DNA of 47,746 nt from Bacteroidia bacterium (GTDB taxonomy: Bacteria; Bacteroidota; Bacteroidia; Bacteroidales; VadinHA17), in the NCBI GenBank assembly GCA_026391215.1, contig JAPLDX010000091.1, forward strand, positions 1-47,746. Reading direction: 5' to 3'. A program made the position numbers and the translations under genes. Shown here in pieces: positions 5,569 through 41,089 of this stretch. Position 1 is the first letter of the stretch. Each line of letters begins with the position of its first letter. The notes under the pieces were generated by a model. That model was not told where the DNA came from. It searched no databases and saw nothing but the letters and a program-made list of their open reading frames with translations.

Positions 5569-7092
5569 TTATTTGATTATCATAAGTATATCTTCATTGT
5601 CCGCGACTGAAACCGCCAGCTTTTCCAGTTCTTCTTTTTTTTCTGAGGGGGCTCGAGAAAGCTTAAATTCATTCGATTTTATCCGTTCCTTCAGTTCACT
5701 TCCCTTCATAGGGAACATAATCTCACCATTTTGACTTATCATATATGACAGGGGCCACACCGGGACTCCGCCATCAATATTATTTTCCAGAATTTCAGGG
5801 GAATAATTTAAAGGATCACCTTTAATGATTGTTAACAGGCGGTTCAGTTTTGAATAGATAGCATGATAGATTTTAACCGTTTTGTTTTTTCTGGTATCAG
5901 GACAATCATAATCATCTTTTGTGAAAGTCAGGAAGATATAATTCTCTGTCTCAGCCCAATCTTCCGGAATGATTCTTCCTGTAAGGTCAAAGCCGGGATC
6001 AACACCTTCCTGCCTTGAGACTTTATATTCACCAAGTTCAAGCACATAAACAGGTATCATACGATTTGGCGGACTAATCCTGAAAACCGTATCGTTGAAA
6101 GCGGGACGATAGAAAAACCTTCCACCCGATTCATAATTTGTGCCGCCATCGGTGCCCCTCTGCATAATTTTTGTATAGTTAACCAGCTTTTCAAGGCGGG
6201 TAAATTCTGATAATGTATCTCCAAGGTTGTTAAGAACAATCAGCATGTTTTCACCACGAGCGGGAAGGATATATGAATCATGATCGAGCAAATAAGTACC
6301 TAAATCCATAAAAAAACCTTCAGGTGAACCGCCGAACATCCCCTGGTGTTTTCGGGGAGGTGGCGGAACAGTGTTCCCATGATTCAGATCAATAGCAATT
6401 TCACCCAAGCCGGAAATCTGATCCGGATTTTCAGGATCAAATTTGTATTCAGGCTTCAGCTGAACAGAGGAACAGTCATATTTCATTAAATATTTCTGCC
6501 CGGTAATATTATTACTGTAATAATAAAACAAATTGTCGCCGTCAGCCTGAACAGAAAATCCTCCACCCTTCAGATAATAATCGTTCCGGAATAGTAACCT
6601 GTCCGCATCAACCATTACTCCGCTCATTTCATTTTTTACAATTGAACGCAGGTATTTGCCTGATTTTGAATACAGATGAATCCCATACAGATTAAGAGCA
6701 ACTATATAGTTGTCCATAATGTAATATTTGAATTTCAGATCCTTTGGTATTGTTGAATCAGGGACAGGTTCTATTCTTACATATGAGATCGTTGAGGCTA
6801 CATCCGATAATTTTATTTCACTTATATTGTTCAGGCTCCCGGCAATATCAATATTTAAAGGTGTATGTTTTGGATCAACAGATCTGTCTTCTTTAAAATG
6901 AAGTCCATTCGAAAGCCTGTTCAATGAATCTGATAATTGTTTTTCCCGGGCAGCTTTCTCTGTCTCATTTTTTTCCTGAAGAAGGATTTGATTTACCAGT
7001 TCCTGTTCATTGGTTTGAAGACGGTTACGGTGACATGACAGATTTATGATCAGTACCAGAAAGATTATTGATATTATTAATGAGTTTCTCAT
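5569..7092 (-). CDS. Lipoprotein, probable DUF4934 / 6-bladed beta-propeller type
   Basis: 507 aa. Hydrophobic signal ending NLSC (lipobox); IKLSDVASTISYVRIE, NDTVFRI and NNIDGGVPVWP motifs typical of these Bacteroidales lipoproteins. Family assignment is from recollection only. Confidence 0.7.
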   Translation of the reverse strand: MRNSLIISIIFLVLIINLSCHRNRLQTNEQELVNQILLQEKNETEKAAREKQLSDSLNRLSNGLHFKEDRSVDPKHTPLNIDIAGSLNNISEIKLSDVASTISYVRIEPVPDSTIPKDLKFKYYIMDNYIVALNLYGIHLYSKSGKYLRSIVKNEMSGVMVDADRLLFRNDYYLKGGGFSVQADGDNLFYYYSNNITGQKYLMKYDCSSVQLKPEYKFDPENPDQISGLGEIAIDLNHGNTVPPPPRKHQGMFGGSPEGFFMDLGTYLLDHDSYILPARGENMLIVLNNLGDTLSEFTRLEKLVNYTKIMQRGTDGGTNYESGGRFFYRPAFNDTVFRISPPNRMIPVYVLELGEYKVSRQEGVDPGFDLTGRIIPEDWAETENYIFLTFTKDDYDCPDTRKNKTVKIYHAIYSKLNRLLTIIKGDPLNYSPEILENNIDGGVPVWPLSYMISQNGEIMFPMKGSELKERIKSNEFKLSRAPSEKKEELEKLAVSVADNEDILMIIK

Positions 7093-13422: not shown

Positions 13423-15789
13423 TTATTCATATCTTAATGCCTCCACCGGATTCCTCGTTGCTGCCCTCCAGCTTATACAACTTACTGTTAATAATGTTAT
13501 TCCAAATATGGTTATCCCTGATAAAGCGAAAATCCACAAGCTTATTCCTGCCTTAAATGCAAAATCCTTCATCCAATGCATCATTACAACCAACGAAACC
13601 GGAATTGCAGCAGCAAAAGCCGCGAAAACCCATTTTAAAAAATCCATATTCAGAAGTACTAATATTTCAGAGACTCTGGCGCCATTTATTTTTCGTATTC
13701 CGATTTCCTTTACTCGTCTGAGAATCGAAATTGAGGTCAGGCCTACAAGTCCCATCAGAGCAAGGATAATTGAGATTATTGTCGTGGTGAACAGCATTTT
13801 ATTAATTTTCGACTCCTGAAGATACATGCGGTTAAACGAATCATCAACAAACTCATATTCAAGGTTATATAGAGGATCGACAGTTTTAATTGCCTGAGAA
13901 ATATATTCCAGACCCTCATGGATGAACGATGGATTTAATCGGACATAAATAATTCCCCTTTTCAGGTCATTAAAGGTTATAACAAGAGGGCCTACCTTAT
14001 TATGCAATGAAGCAAAATTGAAATCTTTAACTACACCCAAAACATAGCCTGTATCATTCATTACCATCATCTGGCCAACTGCATCACCCTGAAAACCCAA
14101 AGCTTTTATTGCTGTTTCATTAATAATAAAATTCTTTTTATCAGTTGGAAATGAATTGTCAAAATCACGGCCATAAAGAATGGTAATATCAAATGTTTTT
14201 ATGAAGTCCTGCGTAGTCCGGGTTTGGTTAACCAGTATCTCTTCACTCTGCCGGGTACCGGTACGACTGGCATACTGTCCACTCATAGTCTCGTCAGTTA
14301 TTGACTGAGCAAGGCATACATTCAATATCCCATTTTTTTGAAGCAGTTTATCCCTGATGACATTATAGTTATTAAACACATTTTTATTGAGTCCATTTAT
14401 TGCAACGACGTATTCCTTATTAAATCCGAGATCCTTGTTTTTCACATAATTCATCTGCCGGTAGAAGATAAGCATACATGATACAAGAAGGGTCACAATA
14501 AAAAACTGTGATAAAACCAATCCTTTGATAAAGGGACTTATATGGCCTCCTTTTGAAGAAACACCTTTAAACATTCTGTCAACTGAAAAGCGCGATAAAT
14601 ATAAAGCAGGGTAAATACCCGAGACTATTCCTATAATAGTACTGAGAAGAATGAATCCTGCGAGAAGTCCGGGGTTGAACAGTTCGGAAACAGAAATATT
14701 TCCTCCGGTAAATTTGTTGAAATATGACAAGGTGAAGCTCGTAAAATAAAAGGCAAACAGCAATGAGAATAAAGCTATAAATCCCGCTTCTCCCATATAT
14801 TGTTTAATCATATCAAAACGCGAGGCGCCTGACACCTTTCTTACACCTGCTTCCTTAATACGTGTCTCTGCACTGACAGTAAACAGGTTTACAAAATTAA
14901 TTACGGCTATAATAAGTATAAATATTATCAGGCCCGTTGCAAGATAAATGTTTTGAATATTGCCGTGCGGGACATCCCAGATAATATTGTCGGAGTGGAG
15001 TTCAATATCAGTAAGAGACTGGGTGATCCCTTCTAATTTCCTTTCGGAGTCTTTCCAGAAATCAGCAGCAAGGGCGCTGTATGAATCACATATTTTTTTC
15101 AATGTAATTTCTTTATCGATATTCTTCCTGAGAAGTACATATGTATAAAATTCCCCTCCGGAGTGCTTTACCAGGTTGTCAAGAGAAGGATCATTAAATC
15201 CGCATAACATGTCAAACTTCAAATGAGAGTTAGCCCTGACATCGTCAAGAACTCCACCGACAGACAAGTCTTTCCCCGCGATTTTAATGGATTTCCCTAT
15301 TACGTCAATAGTGCTAAAAACCTTTATGGAAAGCGACTTGCAGATCATTATGCTCTTTGAATCTTGTAACACTTCTGAAGGATTACCACTCAGAACTTTA
15401 AATGAAAAGAGATCGAAAAATGTTGAATCGGCAGAAAGAAGGTGGTTTTTTGTAAACCGGTTATTTTCATATTCAATATCAACAATACCATTATCATAGA
15501 TCCTCAGGCATGACTCCACCTCCGGGATATTCTTTAAATAATATGGTAACTGACCCTGACATAAGGCAATTAACGTGGGATCCTGACCTGGAGAGAAGTC
15601 TTTTCCGAGTATCCTGTAAATACGATCATGTTTCTGATGAAAATGATCATAGCTAAGCTCATTTTTCACAAATAAAGTCATGTGGATTATAAGAGTCATA
15701 GCCACTGACAATCCCAGAACACAAATAATTGCGGTCAGCTTATTATTGAAAAAGAATCTGAATCCTGAAATTAGAAACCTTCTTAACAT
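13423..15789 (-). CDS. ABC transporter permease, MacB/FtsX family
   Basis: 788 aa. ELSYDHFH, RIKEAGVRKVSGA, RRVKEIGIRKINGA, SWRAATRNPVEALRYE. Confidence 0.93.
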   Translation of the reverse strand: MLRRFLISGFRFFFNNKLTAIICVLGLSVAMTLIIHMTLFVKNELSYDHFHQKHDRIYRILGKDFSPGQDPTLIALCQGQLPYYLKNIPEVESCLRIYDNGIVDIEYENNRFTKNHLLSADSTFFDLFSFKVLSGNPSEVLQDSKSIMICKSLSIKVFSTIDVIGKSIKIAGKDLSVGGVLDDVRANSHLKFDMLCGFNDPSLDNLVKHSGGEFYTYVLLRKNIDKEITLKKICDSYSALAADFWKDSERKLEGITQSLTDIELHSDNIIWDVPHGNIQNIYLATGLIIFILIIAVINFVNLFTVSAETRIKEAGVRKVSGASRFDMIKQYMGEAGFIALFSLLFAFYFTSFTLSYFNKFTGGNISVSELFNPGLLAGFILLSTIIGIVSGIYPALYLSRFSVDRMFKGVSSKGGHISPFIKGLVLSQFFIVTLLVSCMLIFYRQMNYVKNKDLGFNKEYVVAINGLNKNVFNNYNVIRDKLLQKNGILNVCLAQSITDETMSGQYASRTGTRQSEEILVNQTRTTQDFIKTFDITILYGRDFDNSFPTDKKNFIINETAIKALGFQGDAVGQMMVMNDTGYVLGVVKDFNFASLHNKVGPLVITFNDLKRGIIYVRLNPSFIHEGLEYISQAIKTVDPLYNLEYEFVDDSFNRMYLQESKINKMLFTTTIISIILALMGLVGLTSISILRRVKEIGIRKINGARVSEILVLLNMDFLKWVFAAFAAAIPVSLVVMMHWMKDFAFKAGISLWIFALSGITIFGITLLTVSCISWRAATRNPVEALRYE

Positions 15790-15822
15790 ACCATATTATT
15801 ATACTGTTTCCGCATTTCGGTT

Positions 15823-15877
15823 CTACTCGTACCTTAGCGCCTCCACCGGATTCCTTGTTGCTGCCTTCCAGCTTTGC
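15823..15877 (-). repeat. Orphan duplicate of a permease 3' end (encodes QSWKAATRNPVEALRYE*); direct repeat of 16206-16260
   Basis: 52/55 nt identical to 16206-16260, including a 48-nt perfect run. The only differences are Tyr TAC vs TAT and stop TAG vs TGA. Confidence 0.95.
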
Positions 15878-15883
15878 CTAAAA

Positions 15884-15912
15884 CCACCCCTAAATCCCCC
15901 AGGGGGGACTTT
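15884..15912. repeat. REP-like G/C-run hairpin, downstream end of cassette 1
   Basis: ccacccctaaatcccccaggggggacttt differs by one base from 18647-18675. It contains the ancestral DUF559 stop codon. Confidence 0.85.
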
Positions 15913-16153
15913 GAATTCTGCTGCTTGTCTCATTTTCTATCTTTTTATGACTGGTTCTATTTTGTTTTCAACTTCTGAGTTTGTAATCCGGATAACTTTA
16001 ATAAAATACTTCTCCATTTCTGCTGAACGGCCATCATCATAGTCTTTCCCATAGTAGCTTTTCATAAGGTGTCGTATTCTCCCTGAGAATTCTGGCAGCT
16101 TCGAAAGTCTCAGGTTTTGCTCCGTAATACATCGATTTTTCAATTTCTTCCAT
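15890..16153 (-). pseudogene. DUF559/Vsr-like endonuclease pseudogene
   Basis: Reads MEEIEKSMYYGAKPETFEAARILRENTTPYEKLLWE, then jumps frame to KDYDDGRSAEMEKYFIKVIRITNSEVEN. Relative to 18653-19051 it has a 134-bp internal deletion plus a 1-bp loss near 15938. The track ORF 15937-16143 is a chimera of these frames. Confidence 0.92.
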
Positions 16154-16176
16154 TTGTCATCTTTTTTTTACTAATT

Positions 16177-16203
16177 AAGCCCCCCCTGGGGGGTTTGGGG
16201 GTC
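16177..16203. repeat. REP-like G/C-run hairpin, upstream end of cassette 1 (inverted relative to 15884-15912)
   Basis: aagccccccctggggggtttgggggtc, 2 nt after the permease TGA. Homologous to 19070-19098 and 41062-41089. Confidence 0.85.
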
Positions 16204-16205
16204 GG

Positions 16206-18557
16206 TCACTCATACCTTAGCGCCTCCACCGGATTCCTTGTTGCTGCCTTCCAGCTTTGCAAGCTTACTGTCACTATCGCAATAGCCAGAGCCAGTAATC
16301 CGGCCAGTGCAAAGATCCACCAGCTCAATTCTGTTTGGTAAGCATAGTTCTGGAGCCATTTATGCATGACATACCAGGCTACAGGCATTGCAATGATAAA
16401 GGCAATAACCAATAATTTTATTAAATCTCTGTTTAGCATGATCATGACTTCCGTCACATTAGCACCGTTTATTTTACGGATACCGATTTCCTTCACACGG
16501 CGCTGGCAGGAAAAAAGCGACATAGCTAAAATTCCAAGGCAACAAATAATAATTGCGCTACCGGCAAACAAGGAGAAAGTCCGTTGGAACCGGAGCTCCG
16601 ACTGATACATGTTTCCGACTGCCTGGTCAAAAAAGCTTACTTCAACAGGGAAAGACGATGAAAGTTCTGAAGCCGTTGTTTTTATATCCTGAATCACATT
16701 GTTCAGGGATTTAAAACTGGTTGTCCGGATTTTTACAAGGCAATATGAAGCATATGACTCATTTCTTATTGCCAGTGATACAATCGGCTGGCTGACAGAC
16801 TTATAATGAAAATCTTTTACTACTCCTATAATCTCAAAATTGCGTTTACCCATTATAAACCTGCCTCCTAAAGGATTAGTGATGTTATGCTCACGCAGGA
16901 ACGTTTCGTTGACTAGAATTTTTTCTTTATCTGTAGAGAAATCATCTGAATAAAAACGACCAGAGACTAAATGCAATCCCATAATTTCAAAAAACACAGC
17001 ATCGGCACTGAATGTGTCAAAATTCAGTCGTTTCTTTTCCCCGTTCAGTTCCATGTCGGCTCCCCATTGTGAGATGTCCTTCCCGGGATAATACTGCGTA
17101 AAGGAAACTACATTGACAGCCGGTTTCTCCAAAAGCAGTTTTTTTAGTACATCTTTCTTCTGATCTATCTGTGGAGTCAGTTTTATCCCGATTATATTTT
17201 CCTGGTTTATACCCAGATTTGTGGAACCGAACCTGACCTGTTTTTGTACCAGCATTGTAAATGCAATAAGTACGATAGCAATGACAAATTGCATAGTTAC
17301 AAGCAGTCCGCGGAACGAGAAATTGGTTTTATCCGGGCTTACAGTATTCTTTAAGTTATCAATAGGTCTTGAGGAGGAGAGTCTTAAAGCCGGAATAATG
17401 CTTAAAATCAAACTAAGAAAAAGGATGCCAGATAAGGAAAGAATTATGAAACCTGGAGAATAGGTTAAATTTTGACTATAGTGTATCCCGGTATATTCAC
17501 TTATTAAAGGTTTAACTGAATTCACAATTTCAATGGCAATTATAAGAGCGACCAGGAAGAAAATGAATGACTCGAATAGCACATTTATAAGTATTGTTGA
17601 CCGTTTAGCTCCAAGGATCTTCAGAACACCGGTTTGTTTGATCCTGTCCAGCCATTGAGATGATGATATATTGATGAAATTTATAAGGGCAATCACCAGA
17701 ACCAGGCCGGCTACCATTAGCAGGAGCATGACTTTCATTTTGTCCCCGCTTACAAGGTAATCATTGCCATAAAGCATGAATTTTGAAAAATAGACTTTTC
17801 TCAGTGGAACCAGCTTTGCGCTTTTATAATCCTCACGGAAGTCTTCCGGGATTATGTTCAGAATGGTTTTTTCTGTTTCACCGGGATTGGCTTTGTTGCT
17901 TAAAAGAATAAAGGTTTGGAAATCACACCATCCCCATTCCGTGAACTCCCCTCCTTCACCCTGAACAATTTTTTGGGTGGCCATTGAAGCAACTGCACTA
18001 ACTGAAAGGCAGGAATTAGCTTTTGGCTCTTTAATTACTGCGCTTACTGTAAGTTCCTGGTTGTTGTTTAGCTTAATAATTTCCCCAATAGCTTTTTCCT
18101 GACCAAAAAGTTTTTCCGCCAGTGTTTCTGTTATAACAACAGTCAATGGTGCTTTCAGGGCAGACTCAGGATCCCCGTAAATGGCATTGTAGGTAAAGAA
18201 TTTAAAAAAATCTTCATCAGCAAACAACAAGTCGGAAGTGACAGGTTCTCTGCCTTCAGCCTGAAATACAGGAGCTTCCCATGTGCCTGCAATCCTGATA
18301 GATGATTCAACTCCCGGCACCTTAATGTCGATATTCTCCTTCAGGACCCCGGGCGTATAGATCCGGTCATCTGATGGCAGGTATAAATAGACCTTGTCAC
18401 CATTCTCATGGAAACTGTCAGTGGTAAGTTCACTGTAACAGTAAGTAGATAAAATAATCACCAGAGCCAGACTTATTGTCAATCCCAACAAATTGATCAG
18501 ATTGGTTACAGGTTTCCGTATAAAATTCCGGATTATGGTTTTAAACAGATATTTCAC
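16206..18557 (-). CDS. ABC transporter permease, MacB/FtsX family (GTG start)
   Basis: 783 aa. INLLGLTIS, RRVKEIGIRKINGA, SLQSWKAATRNPVEALRYE. Confidence 0.93.
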   Translation of the reverse strand: MKYLFKTIIRNFIRKPVTNLINLLGLTISLALVIILSTYCYSELTTDSFHENGDKVYLYLPSDDRIYTPGVLKENIDIKVPGVESSIRIAGTWEAPVFQAEGREPVTSDLLFADEDFFKFFTYNAIYGDPESALKAPLTVVITETLAEKLFGQEKAIGEIIKLNNNQELTVSAVIKEPKANSCLSVSAVASMATQKIVQGEGGEFTEWGWCDFQTFILLSNKANPGETEKTILNIIPEDFREDYKSAKLVPLRKVYFSKFMLYGNDYLVSGDKMKVMLLLMVAGLVLVIALINFINISSSQWLDRIKQTGVLKILGAKRSTILINVLFESFIFFLVALIIAIEIVNSVKPLISEYTGIHYSQNLTYSPGFIILSLSGILFLSLILSIIPALRLSSSRPIDNLKNTVSPDKTNFSFRGLLVTMQFVIAIVLIAFTMLVQKQVRFGSTNLGINQENIIGIKLTPQIDQKKDVLKKLLLEKPAVNVVSFTQYYPGKDISQWGADMELNGEKKRLNFDTFSADAVFFEIMGLHLVSGRFYSDDFSTDKEKILVNETFLREHNITNPLGGRFIMGKRNFEIIGVVKDFHYKSVSQPIVSLAIRNESYASYCLVKIRTTSFKSLNNVIQDIKTTASELSSSFPVEVSFFDQAVGNMYQSELRFQRTFSLFAGSAIIICCLGILAMSLFSCQRRVKEIGIRKINGANVTEVMIMLNRDLIKLLVIAFIIAMPVAWYVMHKWLQNYAYQTELSWWIFALAGLLALAIAIVTVSLQSWKAATRNPVEALRYE

Positions 18558-18584
18558 AATATTCTTTTATTAGTTATTAGTGTT

Positions 18585-18639
18585 TTATTCATATCTTAAT
18601 GCTTCAACCGGATTTCTTGTCGCTGCCCGCCAGCACTGC
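18585..18639 (-). repeat. Orphan duplicate of a permease 3' end (encodes QCWRAATRNPVEALRYE*); direct repeat of 19107-19161
   Basis: 46/55 nt identical to 19107-19161 with no indels. All differences are synonymous except one Thr/Ser codon. It shares the Q-C-W variant found only in that paralog. Confidence 0.93.
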
Positions 18640-18646
18640 AAGAAAA

Positions 18647-18675
18647 CCACCCCTAAATCCCCCAAGGGGGACTTT
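18647..18675. repeat. REP-like G/C-run hairpin, downstream end of cassette 2
   Basis: ccacccctaaatcccccaagggggacttt with a tccccc-aa-ggggga palindrome. It supplies the last codons (SPPWGI*) of the DUF559 ORF. Confidence 0.85.
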
Positions 18676-19051
18676 CAATTCTCCTATTAACTTCATATTC
18701 AATTCTTTTAACAACAGATTCCATATTATTTTCAACTTCTGAATTTGTAAATCTGATTACTTTGATAAAATACTTCTCCATTTCTGCCGATCTGCCATCA
18801 TCATAATCCTTCTTTTGATAATGGATTTCACCATCAATTTCTACTACTAACCTTGCATCATGACAATAGAAATCAGCAATGAAAATGTCAATCGGATGTT
18901 GCCTGCGAAACCTGAGACCACAAATCTGTTTAAGTTTTAGCTTCTCCCAAAGCATTTTTTCATGGAATGTCATATTCTTCCTGAGAATCCTGGCCGCTTC
19001 CATTGTATCGGGTTTTGCTCCGTAATACATCAATTTCTCAAGCTCTTCCAT
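18653..19051 (-). CDS. DUF559 / very-short-patch-repair (Vsr)-like endonuclease
   Basis: ARILRKNMTFHEKMLW...GLRFRRQHPIDIFIADFYCHDARLVVEIDGEIH...DDGRSAEMEKYFIKVIRFTNSEV is the canonical DUF559 pattern. The start at 19051 matches the pseudogene copy; an in-frame ATG at 19114 overlapping the permease stop is an alternative. Confidence 0.92.
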   Translation of the reverse strand: MEELEKLMYYGAKPDTMEAARILRKNMTFHEKMLWEKLKLKQICGLRFRRQHPIDIFIADFYCHDARLVVEIDGEIHYQKKDYDDGRSAEMEKYFIKVIRFTNSEVENNMESVVKRIEYEVNRRIESPPWGI

Positions 19052-19069
19052 TCCATTTAGTCTATTAGC

Positions 19070-19098
19070 AAGCCCCCCCTCGGGGGGGTTAGGGGGTC
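19070..19098. repeat. REP-like G/C-run hairpin, upstream end of cassette 2
   Basis: aagccccccctcgggggggttagggggtc with a C7-tc-G7 palindrome. Imperfect inverted copy of 18647-18675. Confidence 0.85.
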
Positions 19099-19106
19099 TA
19101 TTCATT

Positions 19107-21491
19107 TCATTCATATCTTAATGCTTCAACCGGGTTCCTGCTTGCAGCTCTCCAGCACTGCCAACTGACAGTCAGCAATGCAATTCCGAGTGCAAGTGCT
19201 CCGGCAAGCGCAAAAATCCACCAGCTAAGCGTGGTTTTGAAGGCGAAACTGCGCAGATACATTTTCATTAAAAAATAAGACAGCGGAACAGCTATAATAA
19301 ATGCCATTATTATCCACCTTACAATATTCCAGTAAAGCAATCTTATAATTTCAGTAATTGTTGCTCCATGCACTTTTCGCACACCGATTTCCTTTGTTTT
19401 CTGCCGTGACACAAAATGAATAATTCCAAACGTCCCCAGACAGGAAAGGATTATCGAAAAAATTGCAAACAGACGAATGACATATGCTGAATGCATTTCG
19501 GATTTATAAAGCGAATCGAGCCATTCATCGTAGAACTGATAATCAAAGACAAACTCAGGGCATACTTCGTTCCATATTTTCTTGATATTGTTTAATACAC
19601 CGGGGTAATCTCCAGGGAGTATTCTGCAGGTTAGAAAACTTACTCCAAAATCATCGGAACATTCAAATATTGTCGGTGCAACCGGCTGGTTCAGTTTTTC
19701 AACGTTAATATCCTTTATCACACCGACAACATCAAGCGAGTTTTTTGCTATTTCTGAAGGATTTGCACCTCCGAAAGCCTGTTCGGGTGTCGGGATACCT
19801 CTCACCACTTTACCTTCAATTGATTTCCATCCGGTAAGCCTGAATGCCGATTCATTCAATATCACCGATTTCTTCCAGTCCCGTTCTTCAAATCCCCTTC
19901 CCTGAAGGAATTCAGCATCATAGACTTTAAAAAAGTCGGGATCAACAGTAAAACTTGGAACGTTGCCGTTATATCCATATTTTCTGATTGTGTCCCCCCA
20001 CAAGCCCCACAAAGCAATGCGTCCGGGAACACCATGTGAAACGGTACACGATTTTATATAAGGATTGTTAAATAATTCCTTTTTTATTACCGGAAGTTTA
20101 TCTTTTATTTCCCAGGGAACTTTAATAATGACAAGCTGTTCTTTTGAAAATCCCAGGTCTTTATTCGCTAAAAGATTATTCTGACGGGTCATAATAACCA
20201 GTGACACAATCATTACGATCGAAATCAAATACTGTACTACGGAAAGTCCGCTTTTCATTTGCAGTTTACCTGTTACAGCAGAATTACCGAATATTGAAGC
20301 CGGTTTAAACCTGGAAACAATGATTGCAGGATAAAATCCGGCCAGCACTCCTACTATTATAACTCCCACTATAACTAATAAGATATTCGGAAAATGAAGC
20401 GCTGCAAAAACAGGGAAATCCTTTTGAATTAATGAAGTAAAAGGTTTTTCCAGAAGGAAGGATAAGTATATTCCAAATATAAAGGCAATAAAACTTACAA
20501 CAACAGCTTCGAAAATAAATTGCCAGAATATATCCTGCCTTCCTGCACCGTTCACCTTTTTTATACCTATCTCTTTAATGCGGGTAAGATGGTTGGAAGT
20601 AAACAGGATCACAAAGTTCAGAATCGAAATAACCAGAATTAATATTGTTACAACACTAAATAGCAGAATAGATTGAAGGTCGGCATGAAGTGTTTTGCTC
20701 GTGCCGCCCATAGTTAACGGACTCAGGTATGATTTCTTAAAAGGCAGTAATCTAAAAGATTGTTTCATATAATGATCCTGCGAATAATCCCGCGTAATCT
20801 TTTCCTCAAGCTTTACAGGATCGCTTTTATCGTTTAACAGGAAGAAAAATCGGGAATAGAAAATACCGCTTCTCCATTCTCCACCGAAATCATTTACATT
20901 TTCCCATGTGATGACTGCCTGTGGCTGAATACTTGATTTTTCAGGCAGGTCGTCGAATACGGCGCTGATTGTGAAGTTCTTGCTGTGCTGGAGGTTTATT
21001 GTTTTTCCCATGGGATCGGAATCTCCGAAAATAGTTCTGGCCAGAGAAGTGCTGATAGCAAGACTTTTATTGTCAGGCAATGGATCTTCTGTAGTTCCGC
21101 TGCGGATGTTCACAGAAAACATTTTAAAAAAATCGTTATCTGTCTTAACAACGCTGGTAACTGCAAAGGGAACCTTATCAAGGACAATTTCCATGGATTC
21201 GTTGTCATACCGGCATATTTTTTCTATTTCAGGATATTTGTCCCTTAATTCCCTGACAAGATCACCTCTGAATGTTGTGATTCCGCTTTCGACGCATAAA
21301 CGATAAATCCGGTTGATTTCAGGAAATGATTTATCATAACCTGTTTCATTAAAAACGTAGGAAGCCAGAAGCAAAGCAATAGCCAGGCTAAATGCAAATC
21401 CCGTAATTATTACAAATCCGAATACCGGATTTCTTAAAAGATTTTTGATGGTGATTTTTAAATAATAATTCATGGCATTTAATTCATTCAT
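19107..21491 (-). CDS. ABC transporter permease, MacB/FtsX family
   Basis: 794 aa. ETGYDKSF, RIKEIGIKKVNGA, KTKEIGVRKVHGA, SWQCWRAASRNPVEALRYE. The start overlaps the upstream stop (ATGAATGA); an alternative start lies 6 codons later. Confidence 0.93.
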   Translation of the reverse strand: MNELNAMNYYLKITIKNLLRNPVFGFVIITGFAFSLAIALLLASYVFNETGYDKSFPEINRIYRLCVESGITTFRGDLVRELRDKYPEIEKICRYDNESMEIVLDKVPFAVTSVVKTDNDFFKMFSVNIRSGTTEDPLPDNKSLAISTSLARTIFGDSDPMGKTINLQHSKNFTISAVFDDLPEKSSIQPQAVITWENVNDFGGEWRSGIFYSRFFFLLNDKSDPVKLEEKITRDYSQDHYMKQSFRLLPFKKSYLSPLTMGGTSKTLHADLQSILLFSVVTILILVISILNFVILFTSNHLTRIKEIGIKKVNGAGRQDIFWQFIFEAVVVSFIAFIFGIYLSFLLEKPFTSLIQKDFPVFAALHFPNILLVIVGVIIVGVLAGFYPAIIVSRFKPASIFGNSAVTGKLQMKSGLSVVQYLISIVMIVSLVIMTRQNNLLANKDLGFSKEQLVIIKVPWEIKDKLPVIKKELFNNPYIKSCTVSHGVPGRIALWGLWGDTIRKYGYNGNVPSFTVDPDFFKVYDAEFLQGRGFEERDWKKSVILNESAFRLTGWKSIEGKVVRGIPTPEQAFGGANPSEIAKNSLDVVGVIKDINVEKLNQPVAPTIFECSDDFGVSFLTCRILPGDYPGVLNNIKKIWNEVCPEFVFDYQFYDEWLDSLYKSEMHSAYVIRLFAIFSIILSCLGTFGIIHFVSRQKTKEIGVRKVHGATITEIIRLLYWNIVRWIIMAFIIAVPLSYFLMKMYLRSFAFKTTLSWWIFALAGALALGIALLTVSWQCWRAASRNPVEALRYE

Positions 21492-23994: not shown

Positions 23995-25374
23995 ATGCCT
24001 GTTCAGAAAGGAACCATTCTTGTTGTTGATGATAATAAAAGCATTCTCAGCACACTGGAGATCCTGCTTACGCCTGAATTCGGGGAAGTCACACCCATTT
24101 ACAATCCGAACCAGATCCTGCCCGAACTGAAGAAGAAAGATTATAATCTTGTTATTCTTGATATGAATTTTGTGGCTGGTGTAAATACCGGTAATGAAGG
24201 TATTTACTGGCTGGGGAAAATCAGGGAGACATATCCTGAGATTTCGGTCGTGATGATCACGGCTTATGGTGATATAGATACTGCTGTCAGAGCTTTGAAA
24301 GCAGGAGCTTCTGATTTTGTCCTCAAGCCCTGGGATAATGAGAAACTCCTGGCAACTCTTAAGCTGGCAATCCAGCTCAACTTATCGAAAAAAGAGGTAA
24401 GTCAGCTTAAGGAAAGGGAGTCAGAGCTTAAGAAAGAGATCAACCGTGAACAGCGGGATATTATCGGATCATCATCGCAGATCATCAATGTTATAAATCT
24501 TGCAAGGAAGGTGGCAAAGACTGACGCTAATGTTCTGATCACCGGTGAGAACGGTACAGGCAAAGAGCTTATAGCTTTTGAAATCCACAGGTTATCGGGC
24601 AGGGCAAAAGAATTGCTGGTTAGTGTGGATATGGGTTCATTGACCGAAACTCTTTTTGAAAGTGAGCTATTCGGTCATGTAAAAGGTGCATTTACCGATG
24701 CCCATGAAAACAGGCAGGGCAAGTTCGAGATCGCCCACAAGGGCACTCTTTTCCTTGATGAGATAGGAAACCTTTCATTCCATCTTCAGGCTAAGCTGCT
24801 GGCAGCCATCGAGAACAGGCAGATCACACGGATAGGTTCAAACCAGCTCATCCCTACAGATATAAGACTTATTTGTGCCACAAACAAGAACCTTGAAAAC
24901 ATGGTAAAAGAGGGATTATTCAGGGAAGATCTTTTCTACCGCATAAACACAATCCAGATTGAACTGCCTCCTTTGAGGGAAAGGGGGACTGACATAATAA
25001 CTCTTGCTGAATTCTTTCTCAGAAGATTTACACAGAAATACAGCAAACCGGAGCTTAAAATAAATCAGCAGGCTCTTGATAAGCTAATGAGCTACTCCTG
25101 GCCCGGTAATATAAGGGAATTACAGAACACTATAGAAAAAGCTGTTATTCTCAGCGAAACAAGTGTTATAAAACCTGATGACCTTTATCTGAGGCCTGCC
25201 ACAGAGATAAAAAGCTTCGATTTCATTGCCACTCTTGAAGAAATGGAAGAAAAGATGATGCAGCTTGCCCTGGAGAAAAATAATGGCAACTTCACAGCCG
25301 CAGCAGAACAGCTCGGGATAACAAGACAAACCTTATATAACAGACTTAAGAAAAACAAGCAAGATGATAAGTAA
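23995..25374 (+). CDS. Sigma54-dependent response regulator (NtrC/AtoC family; REC-AAA+-Fis HTH)
   Basis: ILVVDD/LDMN receiver, Walker A GENGTGKE, ESELFGH-GAFTDA, LFLDEI, FREDLFYRIN, WPGNIREL, AAEQLGITRQTLY. Confidence 0.96.
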   Translation: MPVQKGTILVVDDNKSILSTLEILLTPEFGEVTPIYNPNQILPELKKKDYNLVILDMNFVAGVNTGNEGIYWLGKIRETYPEISVVMITAYGDIDTAVRALKAGASDFVLKPWDNEKLLATLKLAIQLNLSKKEVSQLKERESELKKEINREQRDIIGSSSQIINVINLARKVAKTDANVLITGENGTGKELIAFEIHRLSGRAKELLVSVDMGSLTETLFESELFGHVKGAFTDAHENRQGKFEIAHKGTLFLDEIGNLSFHLQAKLLAAIENRQITRIGSNQLIPTDIRLICATNKNLENMVKEGLFREDLFYRINTIQIELPPLRERGTDIITLAEFFLRRFTQKYSKPELKINQQALDKLMSYSWPGNIRELQNTIEKAVILSETSVIKPDDLYLRPATEIKSFDFIATLEEMEEKMMQLALEKNNGNFTAAAEQLGITRQTLYNRLKKNKQDDK

Positions 25375-26722
25375 ACGGCTCTATATTAATATTATAATAA
25401 GTGTATCGCTTATTGCTTCACTTTCTATTCTGCTGGGATACCTGATCTTTTCGGAACAATCCGCACGCTTTTCAATTATCTGTTCCATTACGATCATAAT
25501 ACTGACAATCAGCCTGATATCCTATCTGAACAGGACAAACAGGAACATAAGATTCTTTTTTGATTCCGTTAAAAATGATGATTCAAACCTTTCCTTTCCC
25601 GTCGATAACAAAAAGGGAAATCTCAGGGAACTGCACCAGAGCATGAATAATGTCAACCTGCAGATACAAAGTCTGAAAATAGAGAACAGGCAGCAGGAAC
25701 AATATTTTCAGAAAATACTTGAATTACTGGCTACAGGGATAATTACATTCAATAACAAAGGATTCATCCATCATGCAAATTCAGCAGCAAAAAGACTCCT
25801 GACAACTGAAGTACTTACACATTTGCAACAGATGGAACGAATTGACAAGGAGCTGTTCTGGACAATAAAGAACCTTAAGCCTTATGAAAGACATCTGGTA
25901 GCTGTTAATACAAAACAGGGAGAAATACAATTGCTGCTGAAATCATCATCATTTGGATCAGATGAAAATGAGCTTACAATATTATCTATCCAGGACATTA
26001 AGCATGAACTGGATGAGAAGGAGGTTGATTCGTGGATGAGGCTGATCAGGGTTCTGATGCATGAAATAATGAATTCAATCACACCAATAACATCATTGTC
26101 AGAATCTCTTTCAAATATCTACCAGTCAGAAAAAAAACCTGTTATGCCACAGGATATAACGGAAAAAACCATTGCAACCACTTTGCAGGGGCTTAATGTA
26201 ATAAAAGAACAGGGTAAAGGTCTTATGGAGTTTGTTGAATCATACCGTAAGCTAACATGTATACCGAAACCCGAGATGAAGCTGTTTAGAGTTTCGGAAC
26301 TTTTTTCGAGAGTAAAGATCCTTGCCGGTTCTCTTGAGAAAGGTGAAAATAAGAATATCTCTTTCATATATGATGATCCCGGTCTTGAGATCTTTGCTGA
26401 TGAGAACCTTGTATCTCTGGTACTGATCAACCTGATAAAAAATGCAATGGAAGCCAACGAAAATAATCCTGATTGCAAGATAGAGATTACCGCAGGAAGA
26501 GATTTAAATGACCATAAGGAGATATGTGTCTCTGATAACGGTCCGGGGGTCAGTAAAGAGAATCTTGAAGAGATCTTTATTCCTTTCTTTACAACAAGAG
26601 AAAAAGGATCAGGAATCGGGTTAAGTGTCTCAAAGCAGATAATGGGAGCCCATGGAGGAACTCTGAAGGTGCGGTCAATTCCTGACAAGGAAACGGTATT
26701 CTGCATGAGTTTTCAAAATTGA
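25364..26722 (+). CDS. Sensor histidine kinase (two N-terminal TMs, PAS-like region, HATPase_c)
   Basis: H-box RVLMHEIMNSITPI, N-box NLIKNA, DNGPG, FIPFFTT, GSGIGL. Overlaps the end of the regulator gene. Confidence 0.95.
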   Translation: MISKRLYINIIISVSLIASLSILLGYLIFSEQSARFSIICSITIIILTISLISYLNRTNRNIRFFFDSVKNDDSNLSFPVDNKKGNLRELHQSMNNVNLQIQSLKIENRQQEQYFQKILELLATGIITFNNKGFIHHANSAAKRLLTTEVLTHLQQMERIDKELFWTIKNLKPYERHLVAVNTKQGEIQLLLKSSSFGSDENELTILSIQDIKHELDEKEVDSWMRLIRVLMHEIMNSITPITSLSESLSNIYQSEKKPVMPQDITEKTIATTLQGLNVIKEQGKGLMEFVESYRKLTCIPKPEMKLFRVSELFSRVKILAGSLEKGENKNISFIYDDPGLEIFADENLVSLVLINLIKNAMEANENNPDCKIEITAGRDLNDHKEICVSDNGPGVSKENLEEIFIPFFTTREKGSGIGLSVSKQIMGAHGGTLKVRSIPDKETVFCMSFQN

Positions 26723-30317: not shown

Positions 30318-31046
30318 ATGAACCTGATATTTGACATTGGCAACACCAGCACCAAGATGGCTTTGTTTGAGGGGAGAAAAAAGGTGACCTCTCTCCGGAC
30401 CAAACAGTTCAACTGCGAAAAGTTGCAGAAAATCTTTGAATCCTATCTTAAGAAAATTGATAAGGCAATAATCTCTTCAGTAAGAGATACTCCTGATTTT
30501 ATTATTGATCTGGCAACAATGGGAATACCATATGTTCATATTCTTACTTACCAATCGAAACTTCCTTTCAAAATTGAATATGAAACACCGGAGACGCTGG
30601 GGCCTGACAGGATTGCAGCTGTAGCAGGTGCATTCTCATTATTCCCTGGAAAGAAAGTGCTTATCATTGATACAGGAAGTGCTGTCACATATGAGTATCT
30701 GTCCGGAAAGACCTATAAAGGTGGAAACATATCGCCTGGCTTAAGTATGAGATTCCGGGCTTTACATAAGTTCACAAGAAAGCTGCCACTGGCTTCCACT
30801 ACAGAAAAATATTCTCCAATTGGCAGGAATACTCATGAAGCTATAACCGCCGGTGTAATCAATGGGATGATTTATGAAATAAATGAGTATATTCGCACGT
30901 TTAAAAATAAGCATACCGGCATTAAAGTGATTCTTACGGGCGGAGACGCAGGTTACTTAAAAGACAGAATTAATCATAAAGTCACTTATATGCCTGATAT
31001 TGTGATTGATGGGTTAAACTATATTTTGGAGTACAATGCAAAATAA
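30318..31046 (+). CDS. coaX: Type III pantothenate kinase
   Basis: MNLIFDIGNT, LGPDRI, IIDTGSAVT, GGNISPG, ILTGGD motifs. Confidence 0.96.
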   Translation: MNLIFDIGNTSTKMALFEGRKKVTSLRTKQFNCEKLQKIFESYLKKIDKAIISSVRDTPDFIIDLATMGIPYVHILTYQSKLPFKIEYETPETLGPDRIAAVAGAFSLFPGKKVLIIDTGSAVTYEYLSGKTYKGGNISPGLSMRFRALHKFTRKLPLASTTEKYSPIGRNTHEAITAGVINGMIYEINEYIRTFKNKHTGIKVILTGGDAGYLKDRINHKVTYMPDIVIDGLNYILEYNAK

Positions 31047-32316
31047 ACTGGCGTCATTAATAATAGTTTTCACATATTTACTTTCATTCTCTGTATCCGG
31101 ACAAAAACTTATCAATTCGCCCTATTCACGTTTTAATATCGGATCTCTTGAACCAGCCGGATCCTTCAGGAGCATTGGCATGGGAGGTGTCGGAACAGCA
31201 GTGAGGGACAACAGCTCTGTTTACTTCTTAAATCCTGCATCATACAGCAGCATTGATACGATTTCATTTATTTTTGATTTTGGCCTTGATTACGGAATAA
31301 ATTATCTGACTGAAGGCTCAAACCATCATTTCTCTGATGATATGAACTTTGACCATCTCCTGCTGGGATTCCCGGTGATAAAAGGGCTGGGCATTGCCGC
31401 CGGTTTAGTCCCTTTCAGCAATGGCTATTATAAAATAACTGAATCAGTCCTTAAAGGAGATCCGGGATATGATGCCATTACAGGTGAGTACATCTCTGCC
31501 CATACCGGTGAGGGTGGCTTTACAAAACTATTTCTGGGTTCAGGCGTGAACATCACAAAATACTTTTCTGCAGGAATCAATATGAACGTGATTTTCGGTA
31601 ATATCAGGAGATTAAATGAAATCGATTTTACAGATTATTATGGTATGTTCCATAATAATACTACTGAGAAGCTTCAACTGACCGGAATAAATCTTGAGTA
31701 TGGGGCACAGGCTATTGCACCTTTCAAAAATGGCTTTTATATTAATGCAGGCATGTCTTTCAGTACAGGAAAACATTATAATTCCAGATATGAGAAAGTA
31801 GGTTTTCTGTTTACTGCTTACAGTTCAGTAGATACATTGTTCAATTTTGCAGATTCAACGCGCGCTTATCTTCCGGGAGATATGAGGATGGGTATCTCCT
31901 TCGGCAAAAAAAACAAGTTTACGGCCGGATTTGATTATTCCGAATCAAAATGGTCCAAAGCAGTTATTTCGAGCACCGGAGGATATTTCAGCAATACTCG
32001 TTCATACAGGTTCGGGGCGGAATATATACCTGATAAATTCTCCAACTACAGCTACCTGAAGCAGATTGAATATCGTATAGGAGGACATATTGAAGATAGT
32101 TACCTGGTCATCAACGGTGAGCAGGTCAAAGAGTATGGTGTAAGCTGCGGTTTCGGATTGCCATTGAGGCGTACTTATTCTAAAGTCAATTTTTTCTTTG
32201 ATTATTCTAAGAAATACGGTTCTGGTATTTCAGGACTACATACAGAAAATATTTTTACTGTGGGTGCAAGTCTGAACCTGTATGATCACTGGTTCCTGAA
32301 ACGCAAATATGATTGA
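31036..32316 (+). CDS. Outer membrane beta-barrel protein (OmpP1/FadL-like, commonly found downstream of coaX in Bacteroidota)
   Basis: Signal peptide, NSPYSRFNIG...SIGMGG...NPASYS N-terminal motif, amphipathic beta strands. Confidence 0.7.
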   Translation: MQNKLASLIIVFTYLLSFSVSGQKLINSPYSRFNIGSLEPAGSFRSIGMGGVGTAVRDNSSVYFLNPASYSSIDTISFIFDFGLDYGINYLTEGSNHHFSDDMNFDHLLLGFPVIKGLGIAAGLVPFSNGYYKITESVLKGDPGYDAITGEYISAHTGEGGFTKLFLGSGVNITKYFSAGINMNVIFGNIRRLNEIDFTDYYGMFHNNTTEKLQLTGINLEYGAQAIAPFKNGFYINAGMSFSTGKHYNSRYEKVGFLFTAYSSVDTLFNFADSTRAYLPGDMRMGISFGKKNKFTAGFDYSESKWSKAVISSTGGYFSNTRSYRFGAEYIPDKFSNYSYLKQIEYRIGGHIEDSYLVINGEQVKEYGVSCGFGLPLRRTYSKVNFFFDYSKKYGSGISGLHTENIFTVGASLNLYDHWFLKRKYD

Positions 32317-40994: not shown

Positions 40995-41089
40995 ACCCCC
41001 CTGCCCCCCTGAAGGGGGGTCGAAACCCAAACTATTCTCCCTAAATACTGGAAGGGTTTATAGCCCCCCTTTAGGGGGATTGGGGGGTC
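40995..41089. repeat. Empty inverted doublet of the cassette-type hairpin repeat, abutting the gpmI stop
   Basis: acccccctgcccccctgaaggggggt ... agcccccctttagggggattggggggtc in inverted orientation with a ~40-nt spacer. The right arm resembles 16177-16203 and 19070-19098 and overlaps the gpmI TGA. Confidence 0.8.

What the first reader, a model, noticed from the sequence alone, without database searches (positions are those of the whole stretch)
18585..19161. Candidate new mobile system: hairpin-flanked DUF559 endonuclease cassette that duplicates and replaces the 3' end of its host gene
SEEN: in transcription order the locus reads permease...QCWRAASRNPVEALRYE-TGA, hairpin repeat, intact DUF559 ORF, inverted hairpin repeat, a second orphan QCWRAATRNPVEALRYE-TAA, then an ordinary AT-rich spacer and the next permease. 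The two 55-bp tails differ at 9 positions with no indels, and all differences are silent except Thr/Ser. So the orphan looks like real coding sequence rather than a decayed target-site duplication. No transposase or integrase gene is in the window. KNOWN: DUF559 has the Vsr-like PD-(D/E)xK fold and an ExDGxxH motif (here EIDGEIH). Vsr-like EDxHD proteins such as I-Bth0305I act as homing endonucleases. Some free-standing mitochondrial homing endonuclease elements (e.g. in Allomyces atp6) bring a foreign gene 3' end and displace the native one downstream. INFERENCE: this is a minimal (522-bp unit) bacterial counterpart that cuts in or near the conserved tail and installs a recoded replacement tail, leaving the host gene intact. 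I cannot confirm novelty without a literature and database search.
Basis: partly seen in the sequence, partly recalled or inferred. Interest (0 to 1): 0.88.

Follow-up and report, generated by a model that had tools for sequence, protein, structure and literature searches.

The report
Nuclease cassette that duplicates gene tails
A tiny selfish DNA element carrying one nuclease gene sits just behind a transporter gene between two copies of that gene's last codons, and related genomes show it spreading from gene to gene in this way, much like elements known from fungal mitochondria.

Summary
In the window a DUF559 (Vsr-like) nuclease gene, bounded by imperfect GC-rich terminal inverted repeats, lies directly after the stop codon of an FtsX/MacB-type permease and is followed by a 57-nt orphan copy of that gene's tail (9 differences). 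A second, decayed cassette with the same layout lies 2.9 kb away. Among the 72 testable closest DUF559 loci from other Bacteroidota genomes, 22 follow a permease tail and 19 of those 22 carry an orphan tail. Two other gene families show the same duplication. Gene-less miniature copies with the same ends are scattered in the genome without any flank duplication. In one Draconibacterium-like genome, two cassettes that are 98% identical sit in two different permease genes. The similarity stops inside the tails, which marks a recent transfer by recombination within the tails. Differences between the tail copies are mostly synonymous. Orphans usually resemble relatives' tails more than the in-gene copy does. 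Best reading: a homing-like, tail-replacing selfish nuclease cassette, a bacterial counterpart of fungal mitochondrial mobile ORFs. Cleavage by the nuclease is inferred, not shown. I found no description of this arrangement in print.

The parts
19107..21491 (-). Host gene 'perm3': FtsX/MacB-type ABC permease, 794 aa, one of an array of 8 full-length co-oriented paralogues
   Evidence: ORF list; Pfam FtsX 2e-31 and MacB_PCD 3.8e-20; tails of the array listed
19105..19161 (-). In-gene copy of the duplicated tail (last 18 codons plus stop TGA)
   Evidence: the repeat finder family D1, 57 nt, 84% identical to the orphan, spacing 522
19069..19096 (.). Left terminal inverted repeat with GC palindrome, starting about 10 nt after the permease stop
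   Evidence: hairpin scan; local alignment of the two ends; same repeat family in relatives
18653..19051 (-). DUF559 (Vsr-like PD-(D/E)xK) nuclease gene, about 132 aa from the internal Met. The listed ORF runs to 19114. Its stop codon lies inside the right repeat
   Evidence: Pfam PF04480 E 1.8e-33; PDB 3hrl E 2.3e-13; AF2 model pLDDT 87; Foldseek 3hrl TM 0.91 and I-Bth0305I 3r3p TM 0.78; start inferred from alignment A1
18649..18674 (.). Right terminal inverted repeat with GC palindrome. Together with the T-run behind it, it matches a terminator-like pattern on the gene strand
   Evidence: terminator-like consensus match only
18583..18639 (-). Orphan copy of the permease tail (18 codons plus stop TAA), not part of a long ORF (29 codons open)
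   Evidence: It matches relatives' tails at 8, 5 and 7 of the 9 sites where the two copies differ
16206..18557 (-). Next permease 'perm2', host of the second cassette
16208..16260 (-). In-gene tail copy of the second cassette
   Evidence: the repeat finder D1, 53 nt, 98% identical, spacing 383
15886..16202 (-). Second cassette: inverted repeat arms 16177-16202 and 15886-15911 (26 nt, 88% complementary) around a DUF559 remnant that lacks roughly residues 60-98, the catalytic core
   Evidence: tblastn in two pieces, residues 5-59 and 99-153
15825..15877 (-). Orphan tail of the second cassette, followed by the spacer and the start of the next permease (15789)

Best explanation
This is a small selfish element. 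It consists of one gene for a DUF559 (Vsr-like) nuclease bounded by GC-rich terminal inverted repeats, and it has gene-less miniature derivatives. It lives directly behind the stop codon of a co-oriented host gene. At conserved multi-copy gene ends, above all the ...NPVEALRYE tail of FtsX/MacB permeases, it sits between two copies of the last 16-21 codons.

It spreads to further tails, in paralogues and in other genomes, by homology-directed repair or recombination within the tail. An occupied allele (tail-cassette-tail) serves as template for a broken empty tail. Alternatively a circle of cassette plus one tail integrates by a single crossover. Either way the product is again tail-cassette-tail. 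The in-gene copy becomes a hybrid of recipient 5' part and donor 3' part, so the protein is unchanged. The other copy, donor 5' part plus native 3' part, is left as an orphan.

Shown: the anatomy, the association, the recombinant breakpoints, and the coding-like state of the orphans.

Inferred: that the DUF559 protein makes the initiating cut or nicks in or near the tail, and that the miniature copies are moved in trans.
For: 1. Association. Of 72 testable closest DUF559 loci, 22 lie within 500 nt behind an FtsX-type tail. Of those 22, 19 have an orphan tail behind the cassette. The control 99th percentile was 12, and orphan scores ranged from 13 to 55. In 55 of the 72, a co-oriented ORF of at least 100 aa ends within 400 nt upstream.

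2. Recent transfer. In G044, two cassettes in two different permease genes are 98% identical over linker, repeats and gene (382/391 in the gene). The last 30 nt of the in-gene tails are 93% identical. The start of both orphans shares a rare Ile-for-Gln codon. The gene bodies are 57% identical and the downstream DNA 44%.

3. Import. In L059/L016 the in-gene tail belongs to a different subtype, yet the orphan has the consensus 5' part.

4. Synonymous bias. Differences between the two copies are 106 synonymous against 53 non-synonymous codons in 26 pairs, with junction codons included. Only 21% of random changes would be synonymous. The syntenic orphans of the window and of G045 differ at 9 nt (6 synonymous, 2 not), fewer than the in-gene copies (14 nt).

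5. Comparison with relatives. Relatives' tails are closer in total distance to the orphan than to the in-gene copy in 11 of 12 comparisons over 4 loci. At the differing sites the orphan's lead is clear in 8, slight (1-2 sites) in 3, and reversed in 1.

6. Variable occupancy at the same junction. It is empty in G011 and in the closest metagenome relative. It holds a miniature element or another small element elsewhere. No DUF559 motif was found upstream in any of the 58 metagenome loci, 4 of which were too short to judge.

7. Other targets. Tails are also duplicated in an epimerase-like gene (three copies, L055) and a dehydrogenase-like gene (L052).

8. The nuclease is kept. 65 of 80 copies are open over the matched stretch. 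Acidic and His residues are invariant in 28 sequences. The fold matches 3hrl and the homing endonuclease I-Bth0305I.

9. Precedent. Fungal mitochondrial mobile endonuclease ORFs carry a foreign C-terminal and displace the native one (PMC3630166, passages).
Against: 1. No cleavage data exist, and no target site can be read from the sequences. Unoccupied consensus tails coexist with an intact nuclease gene in the window's array.

2. Several pairs share gene-specific features in both copies: the Lys in the window's second cassette, the Cys in the first, and a Thr in L104. That fits local duplication or later homogenisation better than import.

3. The left border of the orphan varies from about -63 to -33 (most often -58) with different linker bases. 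There must therefore have been several independent births, not one inherited junction.

4. Gene-less elements, and an unrelated small hairpin element, also carry orphan tails. A nuclease in cis is therefore not needed.

5. One of four relatives of L041, the closest one, matches the in-gene copy better. L030 is a near tie.

6. The window's cassette is old (syntenic at about 78% identity), so its differences could have arisen after insertion.

7. Many loci come from related genomes and are not independent.
Confidence: 0.6

Rival explanations
1. Insertion with long target duplication only. Each cassette entered by a widely staggered break (one cut near -58, one at the stop codon) whose fill-in duplicated the local tail. 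No tail is ever imported. Later differences come from gene conversion by the many paralogous tails.
For: Both copies share gene-specific features in several loci. The border positions are variable but clustered. Two loci repeat 4-5 bases beyond the stop. The phenomenon is documented for restriction-modification genes, with repeats of 46 to about 420 bp (PMC2853133).
Against: The 19 other hairpin pairs of this genome show no flank duplication and no short target duplication. The orphan of L059 has a 5' part absent from the local gene. The two G044 orphans share their 5' part although they lie in different genes. The stop codons differ in about half of the pairs, even nearly identical ones.
Confidence: 0.15
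2. Passive passenger. The inverted-repeat element is moved by an unknown enzyme or merely by host recombination between the many conserved tails of the permease arrays. DUF559 is cargo with another role (repair, defence or addiction) and does not drive the spread.
For: Gene-less copies and an unrelated small hairpin element also lie between tail copies. Arrays of tail-element-tail-element-tail look like unequal recombination (L035, L037). A weak PADLOC match to a methyl-directed restriction enzyme exists (E 0.0025).
Against: Every one of the roughly 10 DUF559 genes of this genome and most of the 80 relatives carry their own matching inverted repeats. The ORF ends inside the repeat. 65 of 80 copies are open. 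Transfer of a 0.5-kb heterology on 20-30 nt of homology is hard to obtain without an induced break (established knowledge of RecA homology requirements, recalled).
Confidence: 0.2
3. Deletion remnant. The orphan is what is left of a permease paralogue that once lay between the cassette and the next gene.
For: The genes stand in tandem arrays of paralogues with near-identical tails.
Against: In 19 of 22 loci the orphan begins within a few bases of the right repeat and is only 33-63 nt long. The orphans match their own upstream gene in gene-specific codons. No relative examined shows a full gene at that place.
Confidence: 0.02

Closest known systems
Mobile endonuclease ORFs (mORFs) of fungal mitochondria with C-terminal duplication (Allomyces atp6; Glomus atp6, atp9, cox2, nad3)
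   Same: A free-standing endonuclease gene lies behind a complete host reading frame. An inserted C-terminal is followed by the ORF and then by the displaced native C-terminal. Differences are largely synonymous, and the native copy is closer to relatives (PMC3630166, passages read).
   Different: The nuclease family differs (LAGLIDADG or GIY-YIG there, DUF559/Vsr-like here). The setting is a bacterial chromosome. The targets are multi-copy paralogues. The element has terminal inverted repeats and many miniature derivatives. The duplication is much shorter (33-110 nt).
Vsr-like (EDxHD) homing endonucleases such as I-Bth0305I and the free-standing genes of 'fractured genes'
   Same: The fold is the same (Foldseek 3r3p, TM 0.78, E 7.5e-4). 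The family is described as occurring in group I introns, between split inteins and as stand-alone inserts (PMC2677866, abstract read).
   Different: There is no intron or intein here. The protein is a single domain of about 132 aa. Its best sequence match is the uncharacterised 3hrl protein, not I-Bth0305I. The tail duplication and the inverted repeats do not appear in the abstract I read.
Insertion with long target duplication of restriction-modification genes (Kobayashi laboratory)
   Same: Nuclease genes with no recombinase are flanked by direct repeats longer than 30 bp that occur once in the empty genome. Some overlap a gene's 3' end. Some restriction-modification units also have imperfect inverted repeats (PMC2853133).
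   Different: Here the nuclease stands alone without a methylase. The same conserved tail is hit again and again. At least some repeat copies are imported.
REPIN-RAYT systems
   Same: A gene is flanked by inverted palindromic repeats, and the genome holds dozens of short doublets of the same repeats (abstract starts in the search listing only; the rest recalled).
   Different: RAYTs are HUH tyrosine transposases, usually one copy per genome. Here the protein is a PD-(D/E)xK nuclease with about 10 diverged copies per genome, each with its own repeat family.
Prophage-like elements that integrate into a gene's 3' end and supply a replacement end (e14 and phage 21 at icd)
   Same: A replacement 3' end with mostly silent differences, and a displaced native end (recalled, no call).
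   Different: Those use a tyrosine integrase and are kilobases long. No integrase is in the window.

Membership tests
DUF559 / Vsr-like PD-(D/E)xK nucleases (Pfam PF04480) | Sequence match above the curated threshold | tested here: met
   115.1 bits against a cutoff of 20.6, E 1.8e-33, profile positions 4-107 of 109. NCBIfam PRK09767 scores 88.7 bits, below its equivalog cutoff of 218.
DUF559 / Vsr-like PD-(D/E)xK nucleases (Pfam PF04480) | Fold of the solved family member | tested here: met
   AF2 model pLDDT 87.3, pTM 0.82. Foldseek 3hrl: E 3e-8, TM 0.91 normalised to the target.
DUF559 / Vsr-like PD-(D/E)xK nucleases (Pfam PF04480) | Conserved acidic/His residues of the ExDGxxH region | tested here: met
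   D61, E72, G75 and H78 are invariant and D74 is at least 90% conserved in 28 sequences. Their catalytic role is recalled from the family, not tested.
DUF559 / Vsr-like PD-(D/E)xK nucleases (Pfam PF04480) | Nuclease activity | not testable with these tools
   Needs purified protein.
EDxHD homing endonucleases (I-Bth0305I type) | Structural likeness to the catalytic domain | tested here: met
   3r3p_B: E 7.5e-4, TM 0.78 (target), 20% identity.
EDxHD homing endonucleases (I-Bth0305I type) | Residence in a group I intron or intein | tested here: not met
   No Rfam family in 15600-19400 at E up to 1. The gene lies behind a complete ORF, not within one.
EDxHD homing engonucleases (I-Bth0305I type) | Cleavage of the element-free allele | not testable with these tools
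   Biochemistry needed.
mORF-type free-standing homing elements with C-terminal duplication | Order: host ORF with complete end, endonuclease ORF, displaced copy of the end | tested here: met
   Window, two instances. 19 of 22 permease-associated relatives. L055 and L052 for other genes.
mORF-type free-standing homing elements with C-terminal duplication | Downstream (displaced) copy is the native one, closer to relatives | tested here: inconclusive
   In total distance, 11 of 12 comparisons over 4 loci favour the orphan. At the differing sites 8 are clear, 3 slight and 1 reversed. The relatives are only 72-87% identical, and likeness to the family consensus is a confounder.
mORF-type free-standing homing elements with C-terminal duplication | Evidence of transfer between genes | tested here: met
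   G044: cassettes 98% identical in genes that are 57% identical, with breakpoints inside the tails.
Insertion with long target duplication | Direct repeats longer than 30 bp around an inserted nuclease gene, single copy at the empty site | tested here: met
   57 and 53 nt. Single tail in G011 and in L109.
Insertion with long target duplication | Both repeats derive from the local target | tested here: inconclusive
   Fits the window's second cassette and L104. Does not fit L059 or the G044 pair.
REPIN-RAYT | HUH/Y1 transposase | tested here: not met
   The protein is DUF559.
Classical insertion sequence / MITE | Terminal inverted repeats | tested here: met
   26-nt arms, 88% complementary. 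Ends A-C-run ... G-run-T in 19 of 19 pairs.
Classical insertion sequence / MITE | Short target-site duplication and a DDE or other known transposase | tested here: not met
   No consistent flank repeat at 19 pairs. No transposase among the window's ORFs of at least 150 aa.

The most novel reading that the evidence does not exclude
DUF559 proteins of this kind are the driving nucleases of a widespread, undescribed class of bacterial selfish elements. These elements combine transposon-like ends and miniature derivatives with homing. The nuclease makes offset nicks within a conserved gene end. In G044 the recipient-derived parts of the two tail copies overlap by about 13 nt. Both 3' ends then copy an occupied allele, so the element brings its own gene end. 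Cycles of loss by tail-to-tail recombination and re-invasion keep the orphan tails looking like coding sequence across species.
Probability: 0.35. Interest if true: 0.85.

Novelty: new variant of a known kind. Interest (0 to 1): 0.78.

Why it matters
- DUF559 is a large nuclease family with no assigned role. Here its members behave as the single gene of a mobile element, which gives a concrete, testable function.
- It would show that the 'bring your own gene end' strategy of organellar homing elements also operates in bacterial chromosomes, using conserved ends of multi-copy genes as safe landing sites.
- It explains recurrent annotation artefacts in Bacteroidota: nuclease ORFs extended through the repeats, stray gene ends, and assembly breaks.
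- If the roughly 130-aa protein proves sequence- or structure-specific, it would be an unusually compact nuclease.
- The coding-like conservation of non-coding orphan tails offers a handle on gene conversion or on invasion-loss cycles.

Tried and rejected
**Public reads.** Only assembled contigs were on offer, and they break at the repeats. No contig bridged an empty site or a circle junction, so nothing could be concluded. One X2 contig joins the left-repeat region to the orphan through 25 other bases at depth 3.78. It may be a miniature copy elsewhere and was not followed.

**Rfam.** No family matched in 15600-19400.

**Hairpin stability.** The four palindromes fold at -4.1 to -6.6 kcal/mol as DNA, no better than shuffles. 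I therefore describe them as inverted repeats with a short palindrome rather than as strong hairpins.

**Short target duplications.** None was found at 19 pairs.

**Promoter scan.** Consensus matches only, not used.

**Dcm/Vsr-like palindrome centres.** The idea that the palindrome centres are Dcm/Vsr-like sites was noted but not tested.

**Weak flank repeat at C64.** A possible ~24-nt flank repeat at the C64 cassette of this genome, seen by eye, was not confirmed by any test.

**Literature.**
- 'DUF559' occurs in 25 papers, of which 22 were listed; none of the listed titles or abstract starts deals with mobility of such cassettes.
- Combined searches on Vsr-like/mobile/inverted repeats and on very short patch/palindromic/Bacteroidetes gave nothing on this arrangement.
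- 'Long target duplication' occurs in 32 papers, of which 20 were listed; none of the listed ones is on DUF559.
- Supplements were not opened.

**Known errors in my own calls.**
- In one search the rows for the G005 orphan used wrong coordinates and are void.
- In one search junction codons are included, which inflates the non-synonymous count.

Full report
**What is in the window.** On the minus strand lies an array of 8 full-length co-oriented FtsX/MacB-type permease paralogues, all ending in nearly the same 20 residues.
- stop codon;
- a repeat with a GC palindrome (about 19069-19096);
- a DUF559 ORF (Pfam E 1.8e-33);
- the inverted partner of the repeat (about 18649-18674), which contains the ORF's stop codon;
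- a 57-nt orphan copy of the permease tail (18583-18639);
- a short spacer and the next permease.

The two tail copies are 522 nt apart and 84% identical, without gaps. The nine differences fall in five synonymous codons, one Ser/Thr codon and the stop codon.

A second cassette of the same design lies behind the next permease at 15825-16260. It has 26-nt arms that are 88% complementary and 53-nt tail copies that are 98% identical. Its nuclease gene has lost its middle third. Among the window's ORFs of at least 150 aa, none of those scanned is a transposase or integrase.

**The element in its own genome.** tblastn finds about 10 DUF559 loci in the 3.39-Mb assembly. Each is flanked by GC-rich inverted repeats, and the repeat family differs with the nuclease lineage.

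A pattern scan finds 82 repeat halves, many of them as 54-113-bp doublets without a gene. These miniature copies share their ends (A, C-run ... G-run, T) with the cassettes. They show no target duplication.

In a flank test on 21 pairs, only the two permease cassettes have a flank repeat. The tail duplication is therefore not what this element does at every insertion. It is tied to the conserved gene end.

**Relatives.** A scan of one genome per species returned 542 relatives of the nuclease. The best 80 come from many Bacteroidales, Marinilabiliales and Cytophagales, and most have comparable inverted repeats.
- Of 72 loci with enough flank, 55 have a co-oriented ORF ending within 400 nt upstream.
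- 22 follow an FtsX-type tail, and 19 of these 22 have an orphan tail behind the cassette. Some orphans are decayed by stops, deletions or frameshifts.
- Arrays such as tail-cassette-tail-miniature-tail occur (L035, L037, L044, L007).
- Gene-less elements also sit between tail copies (L013, L014, L015).
- Two other gene families show the same pattern: an epimerase-like gene with three copies of about 110 nt (L055), and a dehydrogenase-like gene with a 45-nt copy (L052).
- 65 of 80 nuclease copies are open over the matched stretch.

**Is a tail imported or made on the spot?** Four results point to import.

1. In G044 two cassettes lie in two permease genes 5.6 kb apart. They are 98% identical from the linker behind the stop codon to the junction with the orphan. 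The likeness extends into the last 30 nt of the in-gene tails (93%) and into the start of both orphans, which share a rare Ile codon in place of Gln. Gene bodies (57%) and downstream DNA (44%) are unlike. This is the footprint of a recent transfer with both breakpoints inside the tails.

2. In L059 the host gene has a different tail subtype, yet the orphan begins with the consensus type. Only the last 30 nt or so agree.

3. Differences between the copies are 106 synonymous to 53 non-synonymous codons over 26 pairs, although only 21% of random changes would be synonymous. The syntenic orphans of the window and of a congener (G045, about 78% identical over 3 kb) differ less than the in-gene copies do (9 nt against 14) and mostly silently. 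An untranslated remnant left to itself should do the opposite.

4. Relatives' single tails are closer in total distance to the orphan than to the in-gene copy in 11 of 12 comparisons. At the differing sites the lead is clear in 8, slight in 3 and reversed in 1.

Against a pure import model:
- Several pairs share gene-specific codons in both copies.
- The orphan's left border varies between about -63 and -33.
- One close relative of L041 sides with the in-gene copy.

I therefore think the arrangement is born locally now and then, by a break with long overlap or an illegitimate join. It then spreads and is homogenised through the homology that the two tail copies provide.

**The same junction in relatives.** The junction behind the orthologue of the first permease varies:
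- empty in G011;
- holds a solo repeat in the closest metagenome relative (L109);
- holds miniature elements in others;
- holds a different small hairpin element with a 21-nt orphan in others;
- holds a DUF559 cassette only in the window's lineage, in G045 and probably in G005.

The second cassette's junction is unoccupied in G045. Occupancy thus changes on the time scale of species within a genus.

**The protein.** It is a single-domain DUF559 of about 132 aa. Its closest solved relative is the uncharacterised 3hrl protein (E 2.3e-13). The model is confident (pLDDT 87). It superposes on 3hrl (TM 0.91) and on the catalytic domain of the homing endonuclease I-Bth0305I (TM 0.78). The acidic and His residues of the family motif are invariant in 28 relatives. 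Activity and specificity are untested.

**Mechanism proposed.** A break in an unoccupied tail is repaired from an occupied allele. The left end pairs with the in-gene copy and the right end with the orphan, and the cassette is copied in between. An equivalent route is a circle of cassette plus one tail that integrates by one crossover. Both routes give a hybrid in-gene tail that encodes the same protein, together with a displaced orphan.

Recombination between the two copies would remove the cassette and leave one functional tail. Cycles of loss and re-invasion, or repeated conversion from functional tails, would keep orphans coding-like.

- Shown: the anatomy, the recombinant footprints, the silent-site bias.
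- Inferred: the nuclease as initiator, the intermediates, mobilisation of the miniature copies in trans.

**Comparison with what is known.**
- The closest parallel is the mobile endonuclease ORF of fungal mitochondria, which carries a foreign C-terminal and displaces the native one (PMC3630166, passages).
- Vsr-like homing endonucleases are known from introns, split inteins and stand-alone inserts (PMC2677866, abstract).
- Long target duplications and imperfect inverted repeats around restriction-modification genes were catalogued without a mechanism (PMC2853133, passages and Discussion).
- One survey lists 'DUF559 domain-containing protein' among annotations enriched in predicted programmed inversions (odds ratio 14.3; PMC9881135, one passage). 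The inverted repeats seen here would explain that.
- None of my searches found this bacterial arrangement described.

I rate it a new variant of a known kind.

**Limits.**
- Many loci come from related genomes and are not independent.
- Orthologues used for the native-versus-foreign test are distant.
- Read data were uninformative.
- No experiment was possible.

Noticed in passing
L002 (G022), L006 (G016), L139, L144, L145, L153, L156; also behind the orphans in L033, L044, L104: A different small hairpin element, with an AT-flanked CCCGA...TCGGG-type palindrome, sits behind permease stop codons. It is followed by a short orphan of only the last 6-7 codons (about 21 nt). It may be the miniature form of another DUF559 lineage, such as the C38-type cassette of this genome.
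   Followed up: partly
window 40996-41087: A 92-bp gene-less doublet of the commoner repeat family lies between a DUF3109 gene and a phosphoglycerate mutase gene. It has no flank duplication.
   Followed up: partly
L055 1263-2045; L052 1330-2075: DUF559 cassettes lie behind an epimerase-like gene (three tail copies of about 110 nt) and behind a dehydrogenase-like gene (45-nt copy). L057 follows the same kind of dehydrogenase tail in another genome. L046/L051 and L083/L108 also share upstream gene ends pairwise.
   Followed up: partly
window 18650-18668 and 15887-15905, minus strand: The right repeat plus the T-run that links it to the orphan matches an intrinsic-terminator pattern. It could end the permease-nuclease transcript. 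This is a consensus match only.
   Followed up: no
window 18648-19139 in run X2: The contig covering the cassette has word depth 15.2, against 6.75-8 for the flanking contigs. This hints at further copies or strains carrying the cassette in that sample.
   Followed up: no
L194 (G045:C27) 935-1640 and 6292-7000: The two cassettes of G045 are more alike (alignment mean 88%, flanks included) than either is to the window's syntenic cassette (about 78-80%). This suggests transfer or conversion between cassettes within that genome after the lineages split.
   Followed up: partly
window 23995-26722: A sigma-54-type response regulator ORF and a histidine kinase ORF stand divergently next to the permease array.
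   Followed up: no
window 5569-7092 and 31036-32316: Two ORFs of 507 and 426 aa have no Pfam family at E 1e-5. The first sits inside the permease array.
   Followed up: no
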